In this document: positions 19,486 through 59,613 of the stretch, in pieces
Position numbering within the stretch: position 1 is the stretch's first letter
How the letters are laid out: each line of letters starts with the position of its first letter
Assembly: GCF_000027125.1 (NCBI RefSeq)
Contig: NC_017626.1
Strand: one strand, 5' to 3'
Length of the DNA stretch: 64,000 nucleotides
Origin: Escherichia coli 042
GTDB lineage: Bacteria > Pseudomonadota > Gammaproteobacteria > Enterobacterales > Enterobacteriaceae
Program-made: the position numbers and the translations under genes
The notes under the pieces: model-generated
Told to the model about the DNA's origin: nothing
Databases searched by the model: none
The model's input: only the letters and a program-made list of their open reading frames with translations

Positions 19486-19950
19486 ATGGAAAAGAAATTA
19501 CCCCGCATTAAAGCGCTGCTAACCCCCGGCGAAGTGGCAAAACGCAGCGGTGTGGCGGTATCGGCGCTGCATTTCTATGAAAGCAAAGGGTTGATTACCA
19601 GTGTCCGTAATAGCGGCAATCAGCGCCGATATAAACGTGATGTGTTGCGATATGTCGCAATCATCAAAATTGCTCAGCGTATTGGCATTCCGCTGGCGAC
19701 CATTCGTGAAGCATTTGGCGTGTTGCCCGAAGGGCATACATTAAGTGCGAAAGAGTGGAAACAGCTTTCGTCCCAATGGCGAGAAGAGTTGGATCGGCGC
19801 ATTCATACCTTAGTGGCGCTGCGTGACGAACTGGACGGATGTATTGGTTGTGGCTGCCTTTCGCGCAGTGATTGCCCATTGCGTAACCCGGGCGACCGTT
19901 TAGGAGAAGAAGGCACAGGCGCACGCTTGCTGGAAGATGAACAAAACTAA
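19486..19950 (+). CDS. soxR: MerR-family redox-sensing regulator SoxR, [2Fe-2S] (154 aa)
   Basis: Translation [49 protein letters not shown]...; C-terminal [14 protein letters not shown] cluster. Confidence 0.95.
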
Positions 19951-20083
19951 AGCGCCACAAGGGCGCTTTAGTTTGTTTTCCGGTCTTTGTCTTTCTCTCT
20001 ATCCCGCTGGTACACAGGAGGGTTTCCCCCGACGTCAACACACCTCATTCGAGCACGTGGTGGAGGTTCCGGTTGGTGTTGAT
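19944..20083 (-). ncRNA. ryjA: Putative small RNA RyjA; position inferred from K-12 synteny, not from a diagnostic sequence
   Basis: The soxR-ghxP spacer (546 bp) matches K-12, where ryjA abuts the soxR 3' end on the opposite strand; strand and ends are from memory. Confidence 0.3.
19949..19980. terminator. Rho-independent terminator at the soxR 3' end, probably bidirectional
   Basis: Hairpin aaagcgcc-acaa-gggcgcttt followed by a T-rich run. Confidence 0.65.
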
Positions 20084-39169: not shown

Positions 39170-41317
39170 TTACGCCAGTGCCGCTTCGCGCAGGCGAGTT
39201 TTCAACTTGTTGTACTCGTCAATCACGTACTGCTCGGCGGCGCGCTGATCGGCGATCGACTCGACGCGCACGGCGCAGTATTTGTATTCCGGCGTTTTCG
39301 TAATCGGGCTTAAGTTTTCGGTAACCAGCTCGTTACAGGCACCAATCCACCACTGGTAGGTCATATAAATCGCCCCTTTGTTCGGACGATCGCTGACCTG
39401 CGCACGGGTGATAATTTTGCCTTTACGCGAGTGCACCCAAACCAATGCCTCATCTTCAATACCCAGACGTTTGGCGTCTTCGGTATTGATTTGTGCGTAG
39501 CCAGGTTCATCAGCCAGCGCCGCCAGTGCCGCACAGTTACCGGTCATCGAACGGCAAGAGTAGTGACCAACTTCACGCACCGTTGACAGTACCATCGGAT
39601 ACTCGTCGGTGAGTTTGTCGATTGGCGCTACCCAGTCGCAGGTGAAGAACTGCGCCAGACCGTTCGGGGTATCAAACTTCTCTTTAAACAGATAAGAAGT
39701 CCCCTGATCGGCATCTGAAGTATCGCGGCAAGGCCACTGAATGAAGCCCAGTTCGCCCATTTTCTCGTAAGTCGCACCGTAGAAATCCGGGCACAGATGA
39801 CGCAACTCATCCCAGATCTCCTGGGTGTTGTTGTAGTGCATCGGATAACCCATACGAGTGGCAATTTCACTGATGATTTGCCAGTCCGTTTTCAGATCCC
39901 ATTTCGGTTCAACTGCTTTGAAGAAACGCTGGAAGCCACGGTCAGCCGCAGTAAACACGCCTTCATGCTCGCCCCACGACGTTGACGGTAAAATAACATC
40001 CGCCGCCGACGCGGTTTTGGTCATAAAGATGTCCTGAACGATAACCAGTTCCAGATCTTCAAAGGCTTTACGTACTGCCGACAGCTCCGCGTCAGTTTGC
40101 AGCGGATCTTCGCCCATAATGTACGCGGCACGCACTTCGCCATGCGCTGCGCGGTGCGGCAGCTCGCTGATGCGATAGCCGGTATGCGCTGGCAGGCTTT
40201 CCACGCCCCAGGCTTTGGCGAATTTCTCGCGGTTAGCCGGATCTTTCACGTACTGGTATCCCGGATACGTATCCGGCAGCGCGCCCATATCGCAGGCACC
40301 CTGCACGTTGTTCTGACCACGAACCGGGTTTACACCCGCATGCGGCTTACCGAGGTTACCGGTCAGCATCGCGAGGCTGGTCAGAGAACGCACGGTTTCC
40401 ACGCCCTGGTAGAACTGGGTTACACCCATGCCCCACAGGATGGCGGCGCTTTTCGCCTGGGCATACATCCGTGCCGCCTGACGAATCTCACTGGCGCTGA
40501 CGCCGGTGATATCTTCAACCGACTCCGGCGTGTAGCCTTCAACGATTTTACGATACTCTTCAAAGCCTTCTGTACGGGAAGCGACGAATGCTTTGTCGTA
40601 CAGATTTTCTTCAATAATGACATGGCCCATCGCATTCAACAGCGCGATGTTCGAGCCGTTTTTCAGTGCAATGTGGATGTCCGCAATGCGCGCGGTTTCA
40701 ATTTTGCGCGGATCGCAGACGATAATTTTCGCCCCGTTACGTTTAGCGTTAATTACGTGATTCGCCACGATTGGGTGGGAATCCGCCGGGTTGTACCCGA
40801 AAACGAACACTAAATCGGTATTATCAATTTCGTTAATAGCATTGCTCATTGCGCCATTACCGACCGATTGGTGCAGACCTGCAACCGATGGGCCGTGTCA
40901 GACACGAGCGCAGCAGTCAACGTTATTGGTACCAATAACGGCGCGCGCAAATTTTTGCATTACATAGTTGGTTTCGTTACCCGTACCACGCGAGGAGCCG
41001 GTCGTCTGGATGGCATCCGGACCGTACTTCTCTTTGATGGCGCTCAGGCGCTCGGCAACGTAATTCAGTGCCTCATCCCAGGAAACAGGTTCGAGTTTGC
41101 CGCCACGCTGGCGACGGATCATGGGGGTTTTCAGGCGCGGGGTCAGGATCTGGGTATCGTTAATGAAATCCCAGCCATAATAACCCTTCAGACACAGGGT
41201 ACCCTGGTTGGTTTTCCCCTGCGCTGCCTCCGCCCGGACGATTTTGCCGTTATCGACGACCAGGTTGATTTTGCAACCTGATGCGCAATAGGGGCAAACC
41301 GTGACGACTTTTTTCAT
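39170..41317 (-). CDS. fdhF: Formate dehydrogenase H (selenoprotein, 715 aa); in-frame UGA at codon 140 is read as selenocysteine
   Basis: Track ORFs 40898..41317 and 39170..40849 are one 716-codon frame joined through TGA at 40898..40900; N-terminal CPYCASGC Fe-S motif; SECIS hairpin directly 3' of the UGA. Confidence 0.95.
40858..40897 (-). promoter_or_regulatory. SECIS stem-loop directing selenocysteine insertion at the fdhF UGA
   Basis: mRNA sequence CACGGCCCAUCGGUUGCAGGUCUGCACCAAUCGGUCG immediately after the UGA matches the known fdhF SECIS. Confidence 0.85.
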
Positions 41318-49516: not shown

Positions 49517-49550
49517 TGTTGAGTCTAGAGCAGGCATCGCCCCTCACCCA

Positions 49551-50321
49551 TCACTCCACCCCAATCTCCACCCCAATCTCCATCCCATCAAACCCCGCCT
49601 CAAACCCCGACGGCAGTGCGTTTTCCATCAGCCACGCATCAAACTGGTGGCTGATATGGGTCAGAATCACCCGTGGCGAGCGGATAACCTGATTCAGCGC
49701 AAGCACGGTATTTAAATCACAGTGATTACGCGGTGCATCCTCGCGCGGCGGGTGGCTGCAATCAATCACCATTACCTGTGGCTGATTATTGCGTAAAAAT
49801 TTCAGCGTTTTTTCCGGCAGGCCTGCGGTGTCAGACAGCCACGCCACCCGGCTATGTGCCGTTTCCAGTAAATAGCCGAAAGTGAGTTTCGAATGATTGA
49901 GCGGCAGCGGCGTGACCTGTAATCCCTGCAAATCAAACACTACAAACGGTTCCACCGTGTGGCTGAAATCAAGCAGGCCCGGATGTTTAAACAGATCGTC
50001 GCAGCCCTGTTCATCCGGCGGGCCGTAGACCGGGATCGAATCGCCCACGCCCCAGCGCAGCGGAAACAGCCCCTGCACGTGATCCATATGGTAGTGCGTC
50101 AGCAAAAACTGCTGGAACGATCCGGGCGACCAGCGATCGGCGAGATCGTGCAGCCCGGCGTCGATCAGGGTGATCGCGTCGTTAAACTTCACGACGCCGC
50201 TGCATGGCTGGCGGCGATACTGTGGTGAGCGCCGCGCTCTGACGCAGGCCGCGCACTCGCAGCCCCATGCCGGAACGCCCTGTGCGCCGCCGGTGCCGGT
50301 GAGCGTGAGGGTCAGACTCAT
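49551..50321 (-). CDS. phnP: Phosphoribosyl 1,2-cyclic phosphate phosphodiesterase PhnP (256 aa here)
   Basis: Metallo-beta-lactamase motif THYHMDH; C-terminus carries a 12-bp tandem duplication (EIGVEIGVE). Confidence 0.9.
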
Positions 50322-50322
50322 G

Positions 50323-50757
50323 TTACAGCGCCTTGGTGAAGCGGAAGTGACTCTGCTCGTAGCCTTCTCGCAGATAGAAACGGTGCGCGTCGTGGCGCTT
50401 CACGTTGGTCGAAAGCTCAGTCATTTCGGCCCCGGCCTGGCGGGCTTCTTCTTCTGCCCACGCCAGCAACTTGCTACCGACGTTCAGGCCGCGCGCCTGC
50501 GGCATCACCACCAACTCCTGAATTTCGCCGATCCAGTTGACATGATGCAGATGAAACTGCAAATGCAGGCCGATCATGCCGACAACTTCGCCATCCAGTA
50601 GCGCCAGATGGTAGCGCATGTTTGGGTCGCGCAGGTTGGCGTTAAAGCCCACGCGAAACGCGTGGTGGTCAAACTCCGCCTGTTTTAGCTCACAAATCAG
50701 CGCGTAAACTGCGTCGGTGTCGTACTGCGTAGCCGGGCGAAGCTCACAAGCAGGCAT
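50323..50757 (-). CDS. phnO: Aminoalkylphosphonate N-acetyltransferase PhnO (144 aa)
   Basis: GNAT-fold translation [34 protein letters not shown]... Confidence 0.9.
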
Positions 50758-51301
50758 GGTGTTTCTCCTTCTGATGAATCAGCGTCAGCAGCTTGTCGAC
50801 CGACTGGCGCAGGCTGCCGTCATTATTGAGCGTAAGACAATCCTGAGGAGTATAGCGGGCAGCGCGTGCCAGTCGGGCGTTAATTTCACTGGCATTTTCA
50901 CGACCACGGTTTTCGAGGCGCTGGCGCAGGATCTCCGGCGAAACCTGTAAACAAACGGGCAGCAGCGCCGATTGATAGCGCGCCCGCGCCTGCGGCAGAT
51001 GGGCGCGTGAGCCGTTGACCATCACGTCAAATCCAGCGTGCAGCCAGAGGTCAATCTCGACGCCGATGCCATAATACAGGCCGTTGGCGTGCCAGCTTAA
51101 GGCCAGAAGGTTCTGCCCCGCGCGGGTAAAAAACTCCTGCTCGCTCAGGGCGATATGGTTTTCACTTCCGGCGCTGGCGGCGCGCGTGATGTAGCGATGC
51201 GCTACCAGTAGCTGAGTTTGTTCCCGCTGGCGAAGTTCCGTCAACAGACTGTCTTTTCCGGAGCCAGAGGCCCCCATTAACCAAATCAGTTTTCCCGTCA
51301 T
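50744..51301 (-). CDS. phnN: Ribose 1,5-bisphosphate phosphokinase PhnN (185 aa)
   Basis: P-loop [12 protein letters not shown]; overlaps phnO. Confidence 0.9.
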
Positions 51302-52437
51302 CAGAACACCCTTTTACCCTGACGCCAGACGTGGTCGATATGAATGTGGTTGCCCTTGCGATGCGCCAGCACCAGGTCGGCGCGTTTGCCCTCGCCAATC
51401 ACCCCGCGATCCTGAAGATTAAGCGCCTGCGCCGGATTTTTAGTCACCAGCTTCACCGCCTGCGGCAGCGTAAAGCGGTTGCTCTCGTCATCGGCGACGC
51501 GAAATGCCGCATCGAGCAGGCTGGCGGGGTAGTAGTCGGAAGAGAGGATATCCAGCAGGCCAAGCTGCGCCAGTTCACTGGCCGCCACGTTGCCGGAGTG
51601 CGAACCGCCGCGCACGATATTCGGCGCGCCCATCAGCACGTTCATGCCATGCTTGCGCGAGGCTTCTGCCGCTTCGAACGTGGTGGGAAATTCGGCGATC
51701 ACGCTGCCAAGCTGGTGGGATTCGGCAACGTGCGCGTGCGTGGCGTCATCGTGGCTGGCGAGGGCAATGTGTCGCGCGCGGCACATTGCGGCGATGGTTT
51801 CGCGATTTGGCTGCGACCAGCGTGCGGCGAGCGCCAATTGCTCTTCTTCGTACTGCTGCATCTGCGCATCGGTGAGGGAATATTTGCCCTGATAATATTC
51901 GCGATACTTCTCGCGATTGGCGAACTGGCGCTGGCCTGGCGAGTGGTCCATCAGCGATACCAGCGTCACCGGTTCGCGCTGCACCAGTTTTTCAAACAGC
52001 GGCAACGTGGTGTGGTGCGGCAGTTCGCAGCGCAGGTGCAGGCGGTGCTCGGCGCGGTTGACGCCGCGTTTCTGCGTCTCTTCGATGGCGTTGATCATCT
52101 TCTCCAGATTCTCCAGCCGATCGCCGCCGTCGCGCACATCACCAATCGCCACGGCGTCCAGTACGGTGGTGATGCCGCTTGCCACCATCAGCGCGTCGTG
52201 GCTGCTCATCGCCGAATGGGCGGGCCAGTCGACTTTCGGGCGCGGGGTGAAGAATTTATCGAGGTTGTCGGTATGCAGCTCAATCAGGCCGGGTAGTAGC
52301 CAGCCACCTTCGCCGTCCATCGCTTCCGGCTGGCGGCTCTGGCTTTCGGCAAAGGCGCGAATTTCGCCATCCTGTACTTCCAGTGAACCGTGCACCACTT
52401 CGTTTTCCAGCACCAGTTTGACGTTATTGATAATCAT
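51301..52437 (-). CDS. phnM: RPnTP diphosphatase PhnM (amidohydrolase family, 378 aa)
   Basis: Translation [33 protein letters not shown]... Confidence 0.9.
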
Positions 52438-53114
52438 GAAGAGGCTCCCATCGGGTGCAGGCGGTCGGCGACGTCATTGCGTACGGCTTCGTCATGGAAG
52501 ATACCGACGATGGCTGCGCCACGGGCTTTAGCTTCGAGAATCAGTTCCACCACCGCGGCGCTGTTTTTGGCGTCCAGCGAGGCGGTAGGTTCGTCGAGCA
52601 GCAGAATGGGGTAGTCGACGATAAAGCCACGGGCGATGTTGACGCGCTGCTGTTCGCCGCCGGAGAAGGTCGATGGTGCAAGGTGCCACAGGCGTTCAGG
52701 CACGTTCAGGCGCGTCAGTAATCGGGCGGCTTTAGCGGCGCAGGCTTCACGCGGTACGCCGGTATCGAGCAGAGGCTGCATCACCACTTCCAGTGCCGAA
52801 ATACGCGGGATGACGCGCAGAAACTGGCTCACCCAGCCGATGGTGGTTTTGCGGATCTCCACCACTTTGCGGGCTGGCGCGGTGACCAGGTCTACCCATT
52901 CCTCACCGTGTTTGATCTGGATTTGCCCTTCGTCGGGCAGATAGTTGGCGTACAGCGAGCGCAGCAGGGTTGATTTTCCGCTGCCGGAGTGGCCGTGAAG
53001 CACCACGCATTCGCCTGCGTTGACGGTGAGCGAGGCACGTTGTAAGACGGGCAGGCGCACGCCGTTTTGCTGGTGCAGGATGAAGGTTTTACTGACGTTT
53101 TGTACGTTAATCAT
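52434..53114 (-). CDS. phnL: C-P lyase ABC-type ATPase PhnL (226 aa)
   Basis: Walker [13 protein letters not shown] (cat) at 53112..53114. Confidence 0.9.
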
Positions 53115-53147
53115 TTTTCGCCTCGTGGTTCGCATATTGGGGATCGG

Positions 53148-53220
53148 CGCGCGCATTGCCCCTCACCCTAGCCCTCTCCCCTCTGGGGAGAGGGCCGGGG
53201 TGAGGGGACCAGCGCGCACG
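53148..53220. repeat. GC-rich nested palindromic intergenic element between phnK and phnL (boxC-like)
   Basis: gcgcgc..cccctcaccc..ccctctcccc-tct-ggggagaggg..gggtgagggg..gcgcgc: perfect 10-bp inner stem nested in an outer stem. Confidence 0.7.
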
Positions 53221-53230
53221 GTGTTGCAAC

Positions 53231-53989
53231 TCAATTCTGCAAAACCGATGACACCAGCAGCTGGGTATACGGATGATGCGGGTCGTCGAGCACGCGGTCG
53301 GTTAACCCACTCTCCACTACTTGCCCCTGCTTCATCACCAGCAAACGGTCCGCCAGCAGGCGGGCGACGCCAAGATCGTGGGTAACAATCACTACCGCCA
53401 GGTTCAGCTCCACCACCAGGCCGCGCAGCAGGTCGAGCAGGCGCGCCTGCACCGACACATCCAGCCCGCCGGTTGGTTCGTCCATAAACACCAGCTTCGG
53501 ATGCGTCACCAGGTTGCGGGCAATCTGCAAACGCTGCTGCATGCCGCCGGAAAAGGTGGTTGGCAGGTCGTCGATCCGGTTAGCGGGAATCTCGACCTCT
53601 TCCAGCCACTTCTGCGCGGTGGCGCGAATATCGCCGTAATGACGCGCCCCGGTCGCCATCAGCCGCTCGCCGATATTGCCGCCTGCCGACACCTGGCGGC
53701 GCAGGCCGTCGAGCGGATGCTGATGCACCACGCCCCATTCGGTGCGCAGCAGGCGACGGCGATCGGCCTCGCTCATGCCATAGAGGGAACGGTTTTCATA
53801 GTGAATCTCCCCTTGCTGCGGCGTCAGACGCGCGGAAATTGATTTCAGCAGCGTGGTCTTCCCGGAGCCGGACTCCCCGACGATGCCCAGCACTTCCCCC
53901 GGCCATAAATCAAAAGAGACATCGCTAAAGCCTTTGCCCGGCGCGTAAAGGTGGGTCAGGTTATTGACCGAAAGTAAAGGTTGATTCAT
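53231..53989 (-). CDS. phnK: C-P lyase ABC-type ATPase PhnK (252 aa)
   Basis: Walker A GESGSGKTT; ATG (cat) at 53987..53989. Confidence 0.9.
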   Translation of the reverse strand: MNQPLLSVNNLTHLYAPGKGFSDVSFDLWPGEVLGIVGESGSGKTTLLKSISARLTPQQGEIHYENRSLYGMSEADRRRLLRTEWGVVHQHPLDGLRRQVSAGGNIGERLMATGARHYGDIRATAQKWLEEVEIPANRIDDLPTTFSGGMQQRLQIARNLVTHPKLVFMDEPTGGLDVSVQARLLDLLRGLVVELNLAVVIVTHDLGVARLLADRLLVMKQGQVVESGLTDRVLDDPHHPYTQLLVSSVLQN

Positions 53990-54831
53990 TGGTTTTTTGC
54001 CTCGCTCTGTTGGCGGCAATAATCGGTATCGGAGCAGACAAACATGCGGTTTCCGGCGTCATCCAGCACCACTTCGTCGAGATAGCTGTGGGTCGATCCG
54101 CAGATGGCGCATGGCTCATCCCACTGCTGAACGGTGAACGGGTGATCGTCGAAATCGAGGCTTTCCACGCGGGTAAACGGCGGCACCGCATAGATGCGCT
54201 TCTCGCGTCCTGCGCCGAACAGCTGCAGGGCGGGCATCATGTTCATTTTCGGATTATCGAATTTTGGGATCGGCGATGGGTCCATGACGTAGCGCCCGTT
54301 CACCTTCACCGGATAGGCATAAGTGGTGGCGATATGACCGAAGCGGGCGATATCTTCATACAGTTTCACCTGCATCACGCCGTACTCCTCCAGCGCGTGC
54401 ATAGTGCGGGTTTCCGTTTCGCGCGGCTCGATAAAGCGCAGCGGTTCCGGGATCGGTACCTGGAAAATAATGATCTGATCTTCGGTCAGCGACGTTTCGG
54501 GGATGCGGTGGCGGGTCTGGATAAGCGTCGCATCGTCCGTACGTTCAGTGGTGTTTACCCCGGTCACGCGCTTAAAGAAGTTGCGAATTGATACGGCGTT
54601 GGTGGTGTCATCCGCACCCTGGTCAATCACCTTCAACACGTCGCTTTCGCCAATCACGCTGGCGGTAAGCTGGATACCACCAGTTCCCCAGCCGTACGGC
54701 ATCGGCATCTCGCGCCCGCCAAACGGCACCTGATAACCGGGGATCGCCACCGCTTTTAAGATGGCGCGGCGGATCATGCGTTTGGTCTGCTCGTCGAGGT
54801 AGGCAAAGTTGTAGCCGCTCAGATTAGCCAT
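53986..54831 (-). CDS. phnJ: C-P lyase catalytic subunit PhnJ (radical SAM-like, 281 aa)
   Basis: Translation MANLSGYNFAYLDEQTKRMIRRAILKAVAIPGYQVPF...; C-terminal Cys cluster CAICGS..C..C. Confidence 0.9.
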   Translation of the reverse strand: MANLSGYNFAYLDEQTKRMIRRAILKAVAIPGYQVPFGGREMPMPYGWGTGGIQLTASVIGESDVLKVIDQGADDTTNAVSIRNFFKRVTGVNTTERTDDATLIQTRHRIPETSLTEDQIIIFQVPIPEPLRFIEPRETETRTMHALEEYGVMQVKLYEDIARFGHIATTYAYPVKVNGRYVMDPSPIPKFDNPKMNMMPALQLFGAGREKRIYAVPPFTRVESLDFDDHPFTVQQWDEPCAICGSTHSYLDEVVLDDAGNRMFVCSDTDYCRQQSEAKNQ

Positions 54832-55888
54832 GGTTCTGCTCCTGTTGCAGACGTTTGAGTAGCTCCAGTTCGGCCTGGAAATCGACGTAGTGCGGGAGTT
54901 TAAGGTGCGAGACAAAGCCTGCGGCTTCGACGTTGTCGGCATGCGCCAGCACGAACTCTTCATCCTGCGCCGGGCCTGTCGCGTGCTCGCCGTACTCCGG
55001 GGCTTGTAGAGCGCGGTCAACCAGCGCCATCGCCATCGCTTTGCGCTCGCTCATGCCGAACACCAGCCCGTAGCCGCGCGTGAAGTGCGGCGGCTCATCC
55101 GGCGGGTCGATAAAACCGTTGACCATTTCACATTCGGTCATCAGCAGTTCGCCGACGTTCACCGCAAATCCCAGCTCTTCCGGCACAATCGACACGTCGA
55201 TATAGCCGCTGCGGATTTCGCCTGCGAACGGATGATTGCGTCCGTAACCACGCTGGGTGGAGTAGGCCAGCGCCAGCAAATAGCCTTCGTCGCCGCGCAT
55301 TAATTGTTGCAGGCGGGAGGAGCGTGAGCAGGGGTAAACCGGCGGCGTGCGGGTGATGTCATCCGGCTGTGCGCCGCTATCCTCCTCAAACTTCGCCAGC
55401 CCCTGACGCGCCAGCAGGCTGAAAACGTGCGGCGACGGCTGTTGTGCGCTGTCGGCGGTGGTCAGCGTCGGCGCTTCGCCGTTTGCCAGCAGGGTGAAAT
55501 CGAGCAGGCGATGGGTGTAGTCGTAGGTTGGGCCAAGCAGCTGGCCGCCGGGAATATCTTTATAAACCGCTGAAATACGCCGTTCGAGACGCATCTCCGT
55601 GGTGTCGAGCGGCTCGCTTACCGCGAGCTTAGCCAGCGTGGTGCGGTAAGCGCGTAGCAGGAAAATCGCTTCGACGTTATCGCCGCTGGCCTGTTTCAGC
55701 GCCAGCGCCGCCAGTTCGCGGTCGGCAATGCCGCCTTCGGTCATCACGCGATCTACTGCAAGATTAAGCTGCTGTTCAATCTGGGCGACGCTCAGTTCAG
55801 GCAAATCGGTATTGCCCCGGCGTCGGCTCTCTTGCAGGGCGTGGGCGGCGTCGATCGCCTTCTCGCCCCCTTTCACGGCAACGTACAT
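54824..55888 (-). CDS. phnI: C-P lyase core subunit PhnI (354 aa)
   Basis: Translation [41 protein letters not shown]... Confidence 0.9.
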   Translation of the reverse strand: MYVAVKGGEKAIDAAHALQESRRRGNTDLPELSVAQIEQQLNLAVDRVMTEGGIADRELAALALKQASGDNVEAIFLLRAYRTTLAKLAVSEPLDTTEMRLERRISAVYKDIPGGQLLGPTYDYTHRLLDFTLLANGEAPTLTTADSAQQPSPHVFSLLARQGLAKFEEDSGAQPDDITRTPPVYPCSRSSRLQQLMRGDEGYLLALAYSTQRGYGRNHPFAGEIRSGYIDVSIVPEELGFAVNVGELLMTECEMVNGFIDPPDEPPHFTRGYGLVFGMSERKAMAMALVDRALQAPEYGEHATGPAQDEEFVLAHADNVEAAGFVSHLKLPHYVDFQAELELLKRLQQEQNHG

Positions 55889-56472
55889 CAGCACACCTCC
55901 ACATGAGTGGTTCGCGGGATAGCCAGCAGCCGCTCGCCGCAGGTCAGGATCAGGTCGATGCCGAGCGGGAACGGGTGCGGGCGCTCGGTAAGTTCGTGCA
56001 GAATGCACTCCGGCAGCTGCGGGGCGATCATTCGTTCTTCGGCAATACCCGCGCCAGTAAGGCGCAGCATGCGCCCGCCGCTCAGGCTGACGACCTGTAA
56101 AATCAGCGTCGCGCCCGCTTCTGGCGCAACAGCGGTGCCGCTGGAAAGGGCGTTAAGCTGTTCGCTGGAAATCGCCTCATCCGTTACCGCGAAGGTCGCC
56201 TGTTCCGGCTGGCTGACCAGCGGCGCGTTGGTATGAAAACGCAGGCTCTGGCTGACGATATCGTTACTTAATGGCGCAGAAAGCCACACCGGCGTGTCGT
56301 TATCGGCCAGCGTCAGCAGCACGCTGGTGGTGGCGATATTCAGTGGCTGCCAGCCGCGCTTGAGCTGATGCAGGGCGACAATCACGCCCGGCTCGCTCAT
56401 GGCCTTTAACAGGCGACGAAAACTGTGCTGGGCATCCTGCACGGGAAGCATAAAAGCGGTTTCCAGGGTCAT
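55888..56472 (-). CDS. phnH: C-P lyase core subunit PhnH (194 aa)
   Basis: Translation [34 protein letters not shown]... Confidence 0.9.
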
Positions 56473-56921
56473 GCGTTATCTCCGCGAACCATCGTAAAGA
56501 AGTCGACCCGGCTGGCGTTCACTTCGGCCTGGCGTGCGGCAATGCGTGCCATACGGTCAGCGTCCAGCGGGGCAATAAGGGTTTCTGATAAGTTTTGAAA
56601 ATGGCGGGTTTGCTGCATCAGCGCGTCAATCAGCGCGCAGCGTTCGGCGTGCTGTTTGTCGCGCCCCAGCACCCAGCTGTAGCCGAGCGTGCCGTCAGTC
56701 AGGCGTACGGTGGCGCGGGTGAGCGTGGCGTCGCCAGCAAAAAAGCGTTCGCCGGTGCCACCCATCCGCGCCTGAATCTGCACCAGGCCGGTTTCAGCGG
56801 CGCGGATTACTTCATAGTCGGCAGTGATGTTCAGCGCCTTCAGGCGGGCTGCCAGTTCAGCCGGTTGGCTGTGTGCCAGTACGGACATCCAGTGCTGGCG
56901 GGTCGCGGTATCTGCGTGCAT
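56469..56921 (-). CDS. phnG: C-P lyase core subunit PhnG (150 aa)
   Basis: Translation [32 protein letters not shown]... Confidence 0.9.
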
Positions 56922-57647
56922 TCAGTGCTCCATAGTGAATTCAATCATGTCGGCGCGCGTCAGGCTGACGGAGTACTCCGCCGGGCTGCTTTCACCGTCA
57001 CGGTGGTTAAGGGTGCGCACGCACAGCAGCGGCGACATATTCGGGATTTCAAGACGCTGGCACTCTTTGGCCTGGGCGCGGCGGGCGCTGATCCGCGTCT
57101 GGCTGCGGCGCAGCGCAATCCCCGTTTGCTCGCGCAGAAAATCGTGCAGCGAGCCGCTGTCGAAGCGTTGCAGCGTCGGCCAGAGGGTGAGGTCCGCAAA
57201 GTAGTGGTCGATTAAACAGAGCGCGACGCCGTTGACCCGGCGCAGGGTGCGCAGGTGGATAACGTTCTCGCCCTCGGTTATCCCCAGCGCGTCAGCGACG
57301 TGACCGGAGGCCGGGCGCAGCACCGACAGCAGTTTTTCGCTGGTGGGATGGCTGCCCTGATCCAGCAGGTTCTGGCTAAAACGCGCCTGGGCGTTGAGCG
57401 GGTAATCGAACGGGCGCATCAGTACCAGCACGCCGACGCCCTGACGGCGCTGTACCCAGCCTTTTTCCACCAGTTGGTCGATGGCGCGGCGCAGGGTGTG
57501 GCGGTTCACCTCAAAGCGCGCCGCCAGTTGCTGCTCGGCGGGAAGATAGTCGCCGCAGCGGTAGTGTTGACGAAGCTCCTGCTCAAGTTTTGCGGCTATC
57601 TCCTGATAGCGTGTTGGGTAGCTGGTCGGATGTGTAGACAAGTGCAT
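56922..57647 (-). CDS. phnF: GntR-family repressor PhnF (241 aa)
   Basis: N-terminal winged HTH, UTRA-like C-terminus; ATG (cat) at 57645..57647. Confidence 0.88.
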   Translation of the reverse strand: MHLSTHPTSYPTRYQEIAAKLEQELRQHYRCGDYLPAEQQLAARFEVNRHTLRRAIDQLVEKGWVQRRQGVGVLVLMRPFDYPLNAQARFSQNLLDQGSHPTSEKLLSVLRPASGHVADALGITEGENVIHLRTLRRVNGVALCLIDHYFADLTLWPTLQRFDSGSLHDFLREQTGIALRRSQTRISARRAQAKECQRLEIPNMSPLLCVRTLNHRDGESSPAEYSVSLTRADMIEFTMEH

Positions 57648-57667
57648 AGATATCAATGCCTCGCTTA

Positions 57668-58447
57668 TCAGATAAAGTGCTTACGCAACCGTTGAGAGAG
57701 GAAATCCAGCAGGCTGACCGTGACGATAATCAGCACCATCAGGGCGCAGGTTTGCTGGAACTGGAAACCGCGAATCGCTTCCCACAGCGTGACGCCGATC
57801 CCGCCCGCGCCGACCATGCCAACAACGGTGGCCGAACGGACGTTGGATTCGAAGCGATAGAGGGAGTAGGAGATCAGCAGCGGCATCACCTGCGGCAGCA
57901 CGCCGTAGAGGATCTCTTCGAGCTTGTTGGCACCGGTGGCGCGAATACCTTCCACCGGGCCGGGTTCAATTGCTTCTACCGCTTCGGAAAGCAGTTTGGA
58001 GAGCACGCCGGTGGTGTGGATAAACAGCGCCAGCACGCCAGCGAACGGGCCAAGGCCGACGGCGACCACGAACAGCATGGCGAAGACCATTTCGTTAATG
58101 GCGCGGCAGGCGTCCATCAGGCGGCGTACGGGCTGGTAAACCCACCACGGCACCAGGTTTTCGGCGCTCATCAGACCGAAGGGGATGGAGAGAACCACCG
58201 CCAGCGCGGTGCCCCAGACGGCGATTTGCAGCGTGACGGCCATTTCGGTGAGGTAATCCTGCCACTGGCTGAAATCGGGCGGGAAGAAGTCGGCGGCGAA
58301 GGTTGCCATGTTGCCGCCGTCTTTAATCAGCGTGAGCGGGGCCATTTCCGCGCCCTGCCACGAGACGACCAGCACGGCGAGAACAATGGCCCAGCTCAGA
58401 AGCGAGAACCAGCTGCGCTTGGGTGGGGCGATGGTGATGGTTTGCAT
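57668..58447 (-). CDS. phnE: Phosphonate ABC transporter permease PhnE, intact (259 aa)
   Basis: Single uninterrupted ORF with multiple TM segments; this gene is frameshifted in K-12. Confidence 0.9.
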
Positions 58448-58464
58448 GTTTGGCTCCGTTTAAT

Positions 58465-58562
58465 GTTTTCTCCCTCTCCCTGTGGGAGAGGGCCGGGGTG
58501 AGGGCATCAGCGTGCGCATTTTCCCCTCATCCTAACCCTCTCCCTCAAGGGAGAGGGGACCG
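58465..58562. repeat. GC-rich double-hairpin palindromic element between phnD and phnE (boxC-like)
   Basis: ccctctccc-tgt-gggagaggg..ccggggtgaggg ... tcccctcatcc..ccctctccc-tcaa-gggagagggg; same motif family as the element at 53148..53220. Confidence 0.7.
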
Positions 58563-58572
58563 ATCGAGCACA

Positions 58573-59589
58573 TTACTGCACCGCTTTACTCACCGAACTC
58601 ATCGCGCTTAACGCGTTGTTCAGGCGGTCCAGGTCATCCAGTTGCGCCTGAATGGCGCTGGTTTTTGCCAGCTTGTCCTGCTCATTCAGCCCTTTATTAC
58701 CTTTTACGCCCTGCATCTCTTTAAACAGTGCGAGTTGGCGAATCGGCACCAGTTGCAGGTCGCTGGAGGCGCGGAACGGGGCCCATCCCAGGCGCTCCAG
58801 CACCGCTTTCTCTTCCGGCGTTTTGCCGTAGTTCATAAAGAAGTCGTAGATCTTGTCTTTGGTGGTTTCGGACAGATTTTTGCGCCAGACGATCGGATCG
58901 CCTGGGATCAGCGGCGATTTCCAGATCACCTTCAGTTCTTTGAGCTTCTCCGGTGCGGAGGTTTTCAGCTTGTCGAGGTTTTCGGTGTTGTTGGTCGCCA
59001 CATCCACCTGTTTGTTGGCGACGGCCAGCGCGTTGGTTTCATGCCCGGCGTTGACGGTGCGCTTGAAGTCGCTGGCGGAGATATTGTTTTTGGCGAAGAC
59101 GTAGTAGCCGGGGACGAGGAAGCCAGAGGTGGAGTTAGGATCGCCATTGCCGAAGGTGAGATCTTTACGCTTCGCCAGCAGATCATTCAGGTTGTTGATC
59201 GGACTGTCTTTGTTGACGATCAACACGCTCCAGTAACCCGGCGATCCATCCGCCGCGACCGTCTGGGCGAAGACCTGACCGTTGGCGCGATCCACCGCTT
59301 CCATCGCCGACAGATTGCCGTACCAGGCGATATCCACTTTATTGAAGCGCATCCCCTGGATAATGCCCGCGTAGTCCGGGGCAAAGAAGGCGTTGACCTT
59401 TACGCCCAGCTTCTTCTCCATATCCTGTAAGAACGGAGTCCATTGCGGTTTCAGGTTTTGCTGTGATTCCGTTGAAATAATGCCGAAATTCAGCGCCTTT
59501 TCCTGCTCTTCGGCGTGCGCCGGGCTTAACAGGGTGCTGAGGCTGAACATGCTGGTGAAGGCCAGCGAGGCAATTATCTTAGCATTCAT
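58573..59589 (-). CDS. phnD: Periplasmic phosphonate-binding protein PhnD (338 aa)
   Basis: Signal peptide MNAKIIASLAFTSMFSLSTLLSPAHA, substrate-binding fold. Confidence 0.92.
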   Translation of the reverse strand: MNAKIIASLAFTSMFSLSTLLSPAHAEEQEKALNFGIISTESQQNLKPQWTPFLQDMEKKLGVKVNAFFAPDYAGIIQGMRFNKVDIAWYGNLSAMEAVDRANGQVFAQTVAADGSPGYWSVLIVNKDSPINNLNDLLAKRKDLTFGNGDPNSTSGFLVPGYYVFAKNNISASDFKRTVNAGHETNALAVANKQVDVATNNTENLDKLKTSAPEKLKELKVIWKSPLIPGDPIVWRKNLSETTKDKIYDFFMNYGKTPEEKAVLERLGWAPFRASSDLQLVPIRQLALFKEMQGVKGNKGLNEQDKLAKTSAIQAQLDDLDRLNNALSAMSSVSKAVQ

Positions 59590-59613
59590 TCGTTTTCCTC
59601 AATGATGGGGATG

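What the first reader, a model, noticed from the sequence alone, without database searches (positions are those of the whole stretch)
58465..58562. Second, double-hairpin copy of the same GC-rich palindrome family between phnE and phnD
Seen in sequence: two hairpin modules (ccctctccc-tgt-gggagaggg and ccctctccc-tcaa-gggagagggg) with gggtgaggg / cccctcatcc flanks, in the 125-bp phnD-phnE gap. The motif is shared with the phnK-phnL element, so the phn operon has acquired two copies of one small palindromic repeat at internal intergenic positions. Their position after the binding-protein gene phnD is consistent with a role in transcript stabilisation or partial termination.
Basis: partly seen in the sequence, partly recalled or inferred. 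Interest (0 to 1): 0.35.

Follow-up and report, generated by a model that had tools for sequence, protein, structure and literature searches.

The report
BoxC palindromic repeat pair after phnD
The GC-rich double hairpin between phnD and phnE is a copy of BoxC, a known dispersed palindromic repeat of E. coli; it sits where nearly every related bacterium keeps some strong stem-loop after phnD, so it is an ordinary repeat in a possibly useful position.

Summary
Window 58465-58572 holds two inverted three-block modules (CCCTCTCCC / GGGAGAGGG / GGGTGAGGG). The same motif lies between phnK and phnL.

It is not a new family. It is a BoxC element, also called PIT or TMECO. The left module is 34/34 identical to catalogued K-12 copies. 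The 108-nt unit is 94.5% identical to the K-12 hrpB-mrcB pair, and it has the standard type A plus type B inverted arrangement.

The site is polymorphic among 5426 complete E. coli genomes:
- about 71% carry a REP pair (K-12 and B included);
- 6.4% carry this BoxC dimer;
- about 21% carry a single-hairpin BoxC allele, most likely a collapsed dimer (the published "palindrome effect").

BoxC occupancy of the two phn sites is not linked.

In 80 other species, 78 have a strong hairpin after phnD: BoxC-type 35, REP-type 27, other 16. All other phn junctions are tight, except phnK-phnL, which is empty in half the species.

On the mRNA strand the dimer folds into one long hairpin (-65.6 kcal/mol) with no U-tract. 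I infer a barrier to 3' exonucleases that stabilises phnCD mRNA. This is untested. Published reporter assays found no terminator activity for this family.

Verdict: known element, low novelty.

The parts
58465..58572 (.). Complete BoxC dimer unit (about 108 nt): GTTTTCT, type B module, 17-nt spacer, inverted type A module, ACCGATCGAGCACA. It fills the phnD-phnE gap except for the phnE ribosome-binding region.
   Evidence: Window 58465-58572 aligns at 94.5% identity as one block with the K-12 hrpB-mrcB pair at 164540-164646 (alignment A3).
58472..58505 (+). Type B three-block module: CCCTCTCCC-TGT-GGGAGAGGG-CCGG-GGTGAGGGC.
   Evidence: 34/34 identical to TMECO no. 1 and no. 4 of K-12 in Table 1 of PMC4666352. 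Sequence; motif matches.
58506..58522 (.). Spacer between the two modules (ATCAGCGTGCGCATTTT). It is part of the repeat consensus, not locus-specific.
   Evidence: Near-identical spacer in the K-12 hrpB-mrcB copy and in the Enterobacter, Kluyvera and Pseudocitrobacter phnD-phnE copies.
58523..58558 (-). Type A three-block module on the minus strand: CCCCTCTCCC-TTGA-GGGAGAGGG-TTA-GGATGAGGGG. The third block has one mismatch (GGA for GGG).
   Evidence: It resembles TMECO no. 2 of K-12, CCCTCTCCCTTGAGGGAGAGGGTTAGGGTGAGGGT.
58573..58575 (-). phnD stop codon (TAA on the minus strand). In the fold the long stem opens 13 nt downstream on the mRNA.
58445..58457 (-). phnE Shine-Dalgarno (GGAG, 58454-58457) and ATG (58445-58447). 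They lie outside the repeat and outside its main stem. In the fold the GGAG takes part only in a weak 6-bp outer helix.
   Evidence: The ACGGAGC...ATG motif is conserved across the species loci.
53159..53207 (.). Second BoxC element, in the phnK-phnL gap: CCCCTCACCC-TAG-CCCTCTCCCC-TCT-GGGGAGAGGG-CCGG-GGTGAGGGG. It is symmetrical and reads as a three-block motif on both strands. It corresponds to a head-to-head dimer that has lost 62 bp.
   Evidence: Alignment A2 with strains AR_0013 and EC21Z-048, which keep the full dimer. RNA fold -69.4 kcal/mol, z -7.1.
49540..49549 (.). CCCCTCACCC next to the phnP stop codon. It is the only trace here of the BoxC-containing stretch that K-12 carries between yjdP and phnP (TMECO no. 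22).
   Evidence: Tables 1 and S2 of PMC4666352.

Best explanation
What it is (shown): an inverted type B plus type A dimer of the BoxC repeat family, also called PIT element or TMECO. BoxC is a known dispersed, GC-rich, intergenic palindromic repeat of E. coli and other Enterobacteriaceae. Its modules have three blocks: CCCTCTCCC, GGGAGAGGG and GGGTGAGGG. The phnK-phnL element is a second member, in a form that matches a collapsed dimer.

How it most likely works here (inferred): it is transcribed inside the phnC-P polycistronic mRNA and folds, starting 13 nt after the phnD stop codon, into one long GC-rich hairpin of about 40 bp. The phnE ribosome-binding site lies outside that stem. The hairpin fills a slot that almost every phnCDE operon examined keeps occupied by some strong stem-loop. 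That stem-loop most likely blocks 3'-to-5' exonucleases, so that the phnC-phnD segment (ATPase and periplasmic binding protein) outlives the distal message. This is the role classically described for REP elements after binding-protein genes.

The sequence family filling the slot is interchangeable (BoxC, REP or a unique hairpin) and turns over quickly through insertion, flipping and slipped deletion between its own repeats.
For: Identity:
- The left module is 34/34 identical to K-12 TMECO no. 1 and no. 4. The A+B inverted pairing matches the five K-12 pairs.
- The 108-nt unit is 94.5% identical to the K-12 hrpB-mrcB copy.
- The motif does not arise by chance: 3 matches against 0 in 100 shuffles.

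Structure:
- The mRNA strand folds at -65.6 kcal/mol, z -6.55.
- No promoter-like or terminator-like site was called in the gap, and no T-run follows the stems.

Slot conservation across species loci:
- The phnD-phnE gap folds at -15 kcal/mol or better in 74 of 76 measured loci, with a median length of 104 nt.
- phnC-D, phnE-F, F-G, G-H, H-I, I-J, J-K and L-M are tight and mostly unstructured.
- With the manually resolved loci added, 78 of 80 carry a hairpin: BoxC-type 35, REP-type 27, other 16, none 2. The two Vibrio loci are among the carriers.

E. coli alleles:
- All six alleles inspected keep a stem-loop of -23 kcal/mol or better.
- REP pair 3874 genomes, BoxC dimer 348, single BoxC hairpin about 1154, of 5426.

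Orientation: all four dimer arrangements (A+B-, B+A-, A-B+, B-A+) occur at this site across species. That fits a role that needs only a stem.

Literature:
[quoted passage not shown] 1988, as cited in PMC3184786).
- K-12 RNA-seq under phosphate starvation shows varying/decreasing coverage along the phn operon (PMC3734233).
- The malE-malF REP paradigm (Newbury et al. 1987) is from my own knowledge.
Against: - There is no transcript, half-life or protein measurement for any allele here.
- Holder et al. report that PIT elements showed no promoter or terminator activity and no effect on RNA polymerase in the earlier Maher-lab study. They themselves found no link between TMECO position and gene function or regulatory distance.
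- A mutational account could explain persistence without selection. Deletions between the element's own repeats necessarily leave a hairpin behind, and non-overlapping gene junctions are the only places in the operon where insertions are tolerated.
- The family's other phn site (phnK-phnL) has a gap of 30 nt or less in 35 of 71 species, so BoxC presence alone does not imply function.
- Two species (L076, L077) have a 22-23-nt phnD-phnE gap with no hairpin.
Confidence: 0.5

Rival explanations
1. Selfish or neutral repeat with no role in phn expression. BoxC elements, like REP, land in the few non-overlapping gene junctions of the operon and then decay by slipped deletion. The near-universal hairpin after phnD would then reflect permissiveness, recurrent re-insertion and the fact that deletions between repeat arms always leave a palindrome.
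For: - Turnover is high: at least six alleles in E. coli and four dimer arrangements across species.
- The collapsed forms match the 'palindrome effect' described by Holder et al..
- phnK-phnL has a gap of 30 nt or less in 35 of 71 species.
- Published work found no promoter or terminator activity and no functional association for the family.
- K-12 carries a BoxC after phnP that this window lacks.
Against: - Only 2 of 80 species have an unstructured phnD-phnE gap, whereas the equally permissive phnK-phnL junction has a gap of 30 nt or less in half of them.
- Taxa without BoxC or REP at this site (Atlantibacter, Enterobacillus, Vibrio) still have a unique strong hairpin there. A non-functional palindrome should have decayed by point mutation over those distances.
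Confidence: 0.3
2. DNA-level element. The G-rich strand of each module can fold into an intrastrand purine-motif triplex, or the dimer into a cruciform. Either could stall replication or repair and make the locus a hotspot of rearrangement. On this view its significance is genome instability, not phn expression. This is compatible with either of the other readings.
For: - The blocks fit the triplex rule directly. GGGTGAGGG read antiparallel to GGGAGAGGG gives G.G, A.A and T.A triads at 9 of 9 positions in the left module and 8 of 9 in the right (sequence).
- Holder et al. showed a stable triplex for the isolated strand in vitro and more variability around TMECO loci than around controls.
- Here the deletions relative to the full dimers are of exactly the kind they describe: 65 bp in ETEC1701 at phnD-phnE and 62 bp in this window at phnK-phnL.
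- Single-stranded DNA folds at about -28 kcal/mol, z -4.2.
Against: - Holder et al. found no triplex signal for the double-stranded form and no protection in in vivo DMS footprinting.
- Instability describes what happens to the element, not why a hairpin is retained after phnD in 78 of 80 species.
Confidence: 0.15
3. Translational brake. A stable stem close behind the phnD stop codon stalls the terminating ribosome, triggers trans-translation and lowers PhnD output. This was reported for REP elements within about 15 nt of a stop codon (Liang, Rudd and Deutscher 2015; from my own knowledge, the paper could not be opened here).
For: - The stem begins 13 nt after TAA in this allele and only 3 nt after it in the K-12/B REP allele.
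- Both distances are within the reported range.
Against: - The direction of the effect (less binding protein) is the opposite of what ABC-transporter stoichiometry usually requires.
- The distance varies widely among alleles and species.
- Nothing here measures translation.
Confidence: 0.05

Closest known systems
BoxC / PIT (potential intrastrand triplex) / TMECO repeats of E. coli. BoxC is listed as about 56 bp and 32 copies in PMC2267715. Holder et al. 2015 (PMC4666352) list 23 TMECO motifs in K-12.
   Same: - Same three-block sequence; the left module is identical to K-12 copies.
- Same type A (TTA) and type B (CCG) linkers, and the same A+B inverted pairing.
- Same intergenic location and same strain-to-strain polymorphism, including collapse to a single hairpin.
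   Different: - Nothing in kind.
- This copy sits inside an operon, directly after a binding-protein gene. K-12 has a REP pair at that position.
- K-12 does have an operon-internal copy of its own, TMECO no. 19 between pstA and pstB.
REP / BIME elements (repetitive extragenic palindromes)
   Same: - They occupy the very same two phn gaps in K-12, B and about 71% of E. coli genomes.
- They also form an inverted pair that folds into one long hairpin, -50.5 kcal/mol.
- They have a documented ability to affect the stability of upstream mRNA.
   Different: - Unrelated sequence: GCCGGATAAGG/GTAGG-type rather than CCCTCTCCC/GGGAGAGGG.
- No third purine block.
- The REP stem starts 3 nt after the phnD stop codon, against 13 nt for BoxC.
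Intrinsic (Rho-independent) terminators
   Same: A GC-rich stem-loop at the end of a gene.
   Different: - No U-tract after the stem on the mRNA strand. The stems are followed by UUAGGA and by AGAAAACAUU.
- No terminator-like site was called in the gap.
- Earlier work reported no terminator activity for PIT elements.
MITEs and REPINs (non-autonomous mobile inverted-repeat elements)
   Same: A discrete unit of about 108 nt with inverted halves, found nearly identical at unrelated loci (hrpB-mrcB and phnD-phnE) and in either orientation at one site.
   Different: - No target-site duplication is visible at either locus.
- No cognate transposase is known.
- Holder et al. found no association with mobile elements.

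Membership tests
BoxC / PIT / TMECO | Three consecutive blocks: pyrimidine block CCCTC(T/G)CCC(C), short loop, purine block (G)GGGAGAGGG, 3-4-nt linker, purine block GGGTGAGGG(G). | tested here: met
   Both modules at 58472-58505 (+) and 58523-58558 (-), and the phnK-phnL element on both strands. The right module has one mismatch in block 3.
BoxC / PIT / TMECO | Sequence identity to catalogued genomic copies. | tested here: met
   The left module is 34/34 identical to TMECO no. 1 and no. 4. The 108-nt unit is 94.5% identical to the K-12 copy at 164540-164646.
BoxC / PIT / TMECO | Linker types A (TTA) and B (CCG). Inverted pairs always combine one A with one B. | tested here: met
   The window pair is B (CCGG) plus A (TTA), as in all five K-12 pairs.
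BoxC / PIT / TMECO | Strictly intergenic, dispersed and multi-copy in the genome. | tested here: met
   The element is intergenic. There are two sites in the window. The 151-nt query finds a median of 2 and up to 5 places per E. coli genome.
BoxC / PIT / TMECO | The G-rich strand forms an intrastrand purine-motif triplex in vitro. | not testable with these tools
   Only the base-triad compatibility could be read from the sequence: 9 of 9 in the left module and 8 of 9 in the right. CD and NMR data exist for the family (PMC4666352).
REP / BIME | Imperfect palindrome of about 35-40 nt of the GCC(G/T)GATG...CATCCGGC / GTAGGCCGGATAAGG type. | tested here: not met
   The window gap holds no such sequence. 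The K-12, B and Ecol_656 alleles of the same gap do.
Intrinsic terminator | GC-rich stem-loop followed at once by a U-run on the transcribed strand. | tested here: not met
   No terminator-like site lies between 58448 and 58572 on either strand. The sequence after the stems lacks a T-run.
MITE | Terminal inverted repeats plus a target-site duplication. | tested here: inconclusive
   The inverted halves are present. No direct duplication flanks the unit at phnD-phnE or at hrpB-mrcB. No empty site is available in E. coli for comparison, because REP occupies it.
Any Rfam RNA family | A covariance-model match. | tested here: not met
   No hit at 58448-58572 even at E up to 1. The phnK-phnL hairpin gives only chance, sub-threshold microRNA-model hits. 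No gathering-score hit at either site.

The most novel reading that the evidence does not exclude
The stem-loop position behind phnD is a selected functional slot, and unrelated 'junk' palindromic repeat families (BoxC, REP, lineage-specific hairpins) are recruited to fill it interchangeably and are repeatedly swapped. If so, BoxC/TMECO elements, so far reported to have no role in gene expression, would act at the RNA level as segmental mRNA stabilisers or attenuators, as REP does. The three E. coli allele classes (REP pair, BoxC dimer, single hairpin) would set different PhnCD to PhnE-P ratios.
Probability: 0.35. Interest if true: 0.45.

Novelty: already known. Interest (0 to 1): 0.2.

Why it matters
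As an element it adds nothing new. BoxC/PIT/TMECO repeats, their A+B inverted pairs, their strain polymorphism and their collapse to single hairpins are all published.

What is mildly useful is the comparative picture. The phnD-phnE junction keeps a strong hairpin in 78 of 80 species, while the sequence family that provides it changes. E. coli itself segregates three allele classes at this site. That gives a ready natural allelic series for testing whether BoxC has any RNA-level function, which the literature has so far denied. It would also show whether REP and BoxC are functionally equivalent in setting expression along an ABC-transporter operon.

Tried and rejected
- **Rfam.** A search of 50000-64000 at E up to 1, and of the whole window at gathering scores, found nothing at the phnD-phnE element. 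The phnK-phnL hairpin gave only spurious sub-threshold microRNA-model hits.
- **Promoter and terminator scan.** Nothing was called in the gap. I rejected the intrinsic-terminator reading.
- **REP membership.** Rejected for the window allele, although K-12 has REP at the same place.
- **Linked acquisition of the two phn copies.** Rejected. Ecol_316 has the dimer at phnD-phnE and REP at phnK-phnL.
- **Papers.** Makino et al. 1991 (PMC207835) and Liang et al. 2015 (PMC4427526) are not held. What I say about them rests on memory and is marked so. Literature searches for phn-specific transcript mapping at this junction gave only a K-12 RNA-seq remark on varying/decreasing coverage along the operon.
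- **ORF-based gap measurement.** My first attempt mis-set many phnE starts. I replaced it with tblastn anchoring of protein ends.

Full report
**Setting.** The window is E. coli chromosome. Its nrf region is 100% identical to several complete genomes. The phnCDEFGHIJKLMNOP operon lies on the minus strand: phnD at 58573-59589, an intact phnE at 57668-58447, phnK ending at 53231. By homology phnL starts at 53114, not at the longer ORF start of 53156.

The 125-bp phnD-phnE gap contains two modules:
- CCCTCTCCC-TGT-GGGAGAGGG-CCGG-GGTGAGGGC at 58472-58505;
- after 17 nt, its inverted partner CCCCTCATCC-TAA-CCCTCTCCC-TCAA-GGGAGAGGGG at 58523-58558.

The repeat finder recovers both perfect hairpins and the 27-nt inverted repeat that joins the modules. 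The hairpin pattern occurs three times in the window, twice here and once between phnK and phnL, and never in 100 shuffles.

**2. What it is.** It is a BoxC element, also published as PIT (potential intrastrand triplex) element and as TMECO.
- BoxC is listed among the known E. coli stem-loop repeat families, at 56 bp and 32 copies (PMC2267715).
- Holder et al. 2015 (PMC4666352) tabulate 23 K-12 motifs. The left module here is letter-for-letter their no. 1 and no. 4 (type B, linker CCG). The right module is their type A (linker TTA) with one mismatch.
- They report that K-12 has five inverted pairs and that each combines one A with one B. This pair does the same.
- A 151-nt query shows that window 58465-58572 is 94.5% identical, as a single block, to the K-12 pair between hrpB and mrcB. 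The alignment shows shared ends, GTTTTCT at one side and ACCGATCGAGCACA at the other. The repeated unit is therefore a discrete dimer of about 108 nt.
- The phnK-phnL element (core 53159-53207) reads as a three-block motif on both strands. Compared with strains AR_0013 and EC21Z-048, which keep a head-to-head dimer there, it is 62 bp shorter, with the two hairpins merged into one.
- No Rfam family matches either element.

**3. Polymorphism within E. coli.** The phnD-phnE gap comes in at least six forms:
- the 125-bp BoxC dimer;
- three different single-hairpin BoxC forms of 60, 64 and 67 bp, one of them in the opposite orientation;
- the 104-105-bp REP pair of K-12 and B;
- an 89-bp REP pair with an internal deletion.

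Counts among 5426 complete genomes are REP pair 3874, BoxC dimer 348 and single BoxC hairpins about 1154 (consistent).

The 60-bp form differs from the dimer by exactly 65 bp, the distance between the two GGGAGAGGG repeats. This is the 'palindrome effect' that Holder et al. describe for inverted TMECO pairs.

At phnK-phnL, 543 genomes carry BoxC. K-12 and Ecol_316 carry a REP pair there, and I did not classify the remaining genomes at that gap. None of the 5426 has the window's merged form as one uninterrupted match.

Ecol_316 combines the BoxC dimer at phnD-phnE with REP at phnK-phnL, so the two sites are not inherited as a unit.

K-12 also has a BoxC (TMECO no. 22) just beyond phnP. In this window only CCCCTCACCC at 49540-49549 remains there.

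**4. Comparison across species.** A PhnD-based scan of one genome per species returned 80 loci, mostly Enterobacteriaceae plus two Vibrio. I anchored gene ends by tblastn and measured every junction from phnC to phnM.
- phnD-phnE has a median gap of 104 nt and folds at -15 kcal/mol or better in 74 of 76 loci.
- phnC-D, E-F, F-G, G-H, H-I, I-J, J-K and L-M are short or overlapping and essentially unstructured.
- phnK-phnL is bimodal: 35 of 71 loci have a gap of 30 nt or less and 34 have a structured insert.

With the manually resolved loci added, the phnD-phnE gap holds:
- a BoxC-type element in 35 species (Enterobacter, Kluyvera, Leclercia, Lelliottia, Pseudocitrobacter and others);
- a REP-type element in 27 (Citrobacter, Salmonella arizonae, Cedecea and others);
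- another strong hairpin in 16 (Atlantibacter, Enterobacillus, Buttiauxella, both Vibrio);
- nothing in 2.

All four dimer arrangements (A+B-, B+A-, A-B+, B-A+) occur at this one site.

**5. How it probably works.** On the mRNA (minus) strand the gap folds into one long hairpin at -65.6 kcal/mol, z -6.55. In that fold the stem opens 13 nt after the phnD TAA and closes 22 nt before the phnE ATG, and the GGAG lies outside the main stem.

The single-hairpin allele gives -24 kcal/mol and the K-12 REP allele -50.5 kcal/mol. No U-run follows the stems and no terminator-like site was called.

The strong stem is conserved while its sequence, family and orientation are not. That points to a requirement for structure alone. 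The best-known role of that kind is protection of the upstream message from 3' exonucleases, as described for REP/BIME elements (Stern et al. 1988, as cited in PMC3184786; the malE-malF case is from my own knowledge).

K-12 RNA-seq under phosphate starvation reports varying/decreasing coverage along the phn operon, without further analysis (PMC3734233). This step is inference; no tool here measures RNA.

**6. Arguments against a function.**
[quoted passage not shown] They themselves found no functional pattern in TMECO locations.
- A purely mutational account is possible. These repeats insert where gene junctions do not overlap, and they decay by deletions that always leave a palindrome.
- I weigh that account below the functional one, for two reasons. 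The equally permissive phnK-phnL junction has a gap of 30 nt or less in half the species. Lineages without BoxC or REP at phnD-phnE still have their own hairpin there.
- The DNA-level reading (triplex or cruciform driving instability) is compatible with the rearrangements seen, but it does not explain retention.
- A translational brake through a stop-proximal stem is possible in principle, more so for the REP allele (3 nt after the stop codon) than for this one (13 nt).

**7. Verdict.**
- The family is long known, and its polymorphism and collapse behaviour are published.
- 'Partial termination' is not supported.
- 'Transcript stabilisation' is plausible for the phnD-phnE site only, and it remains untested.
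- Novelty is 'already known' and interest is low.
- The one point worth keeping is the near-universal, family-independent hairpin after phnD, together with the natural allelic series in E. coli that would let it be tested.

Noticed in passing
window 53115-53230 (core 53159-53207): The phnK-phnL BoxC element is a merged, symmetrical form that is 62 bp shorter than the head-to-head dimer in strains AR_0013 and EC21Z-048. None of 5426 complete E. coli genomes matched it as one uninterrupted piece. K-12 and Ecol_316 have a REP pair there instead.
   Followed up: yes
window 49517-49553; L001 1199-1345: K-12 carries about 110 bp more between yjdP and phnP, including BoxC TMECO no. 22 and a partial module. 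The window keeps only CCCCTCACCC next to the phnP stop codon.
   Followed up: partly
window 49551-60402 compared with L005, L006 and L001: The phn genes of Pseudocitrobacter faecalis and P. vendiensis are mostly 92-99% identical in nucleotides to this window (one partial phnN match at 86%), about as close as K-12 is at 93-97%. The flanking yjdN is only about 75% identical. This suggests transfer of the phn operon between genera and unusually deep phn haplotypes within E. coli.
   Followed up: partly
window 61043-61120, 27321-27664, 38199-38382: There are naRNA4 (CssrE, REP325-type) matches above the Rfam gathering score: one copy between yjdN and yjdM, where K-12 has about 420 bp more in the alignment (probably extra copies of the unit), an array of four, and a pair.
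   Followed up: no
window 57668-58447: phnE is intact (259 aa). In K-12 it is the annotated pseudogene phnE1, and the K-12 alignment is 8 bases longer.
   Followed up: no
window 53114-53156: The mechanical ORF list starts phnL at 53156. Homology places the real start (MINVQN...) at 53114, so the phnK-phnL gap is 116 nt, not 74.
   Followed up: yes
K-12 pstA-pstB gap (Table S2 of PMC4666352): K-12 TMECO no. 19 lies inside pstSCAB-phoU, another phosphate-transport ABC operon (Pho-regulated, from my own knowledge). Operon-internal BoxC copies are therefore not unique to phn.
   Followed up: no
Genome-contig scan: The PhnD scan of one genome per species returned no Escherichia or Shigella genome, although their PhnD should match the search peptides. 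The ancestral state within the genus could therefore not be inferred.
   Followed up: no
window 19943-20083 and 40851-40905: There are ordinary Rfam matches: sraL sRNA and a bacterial SECIS element.
   Followed up: no
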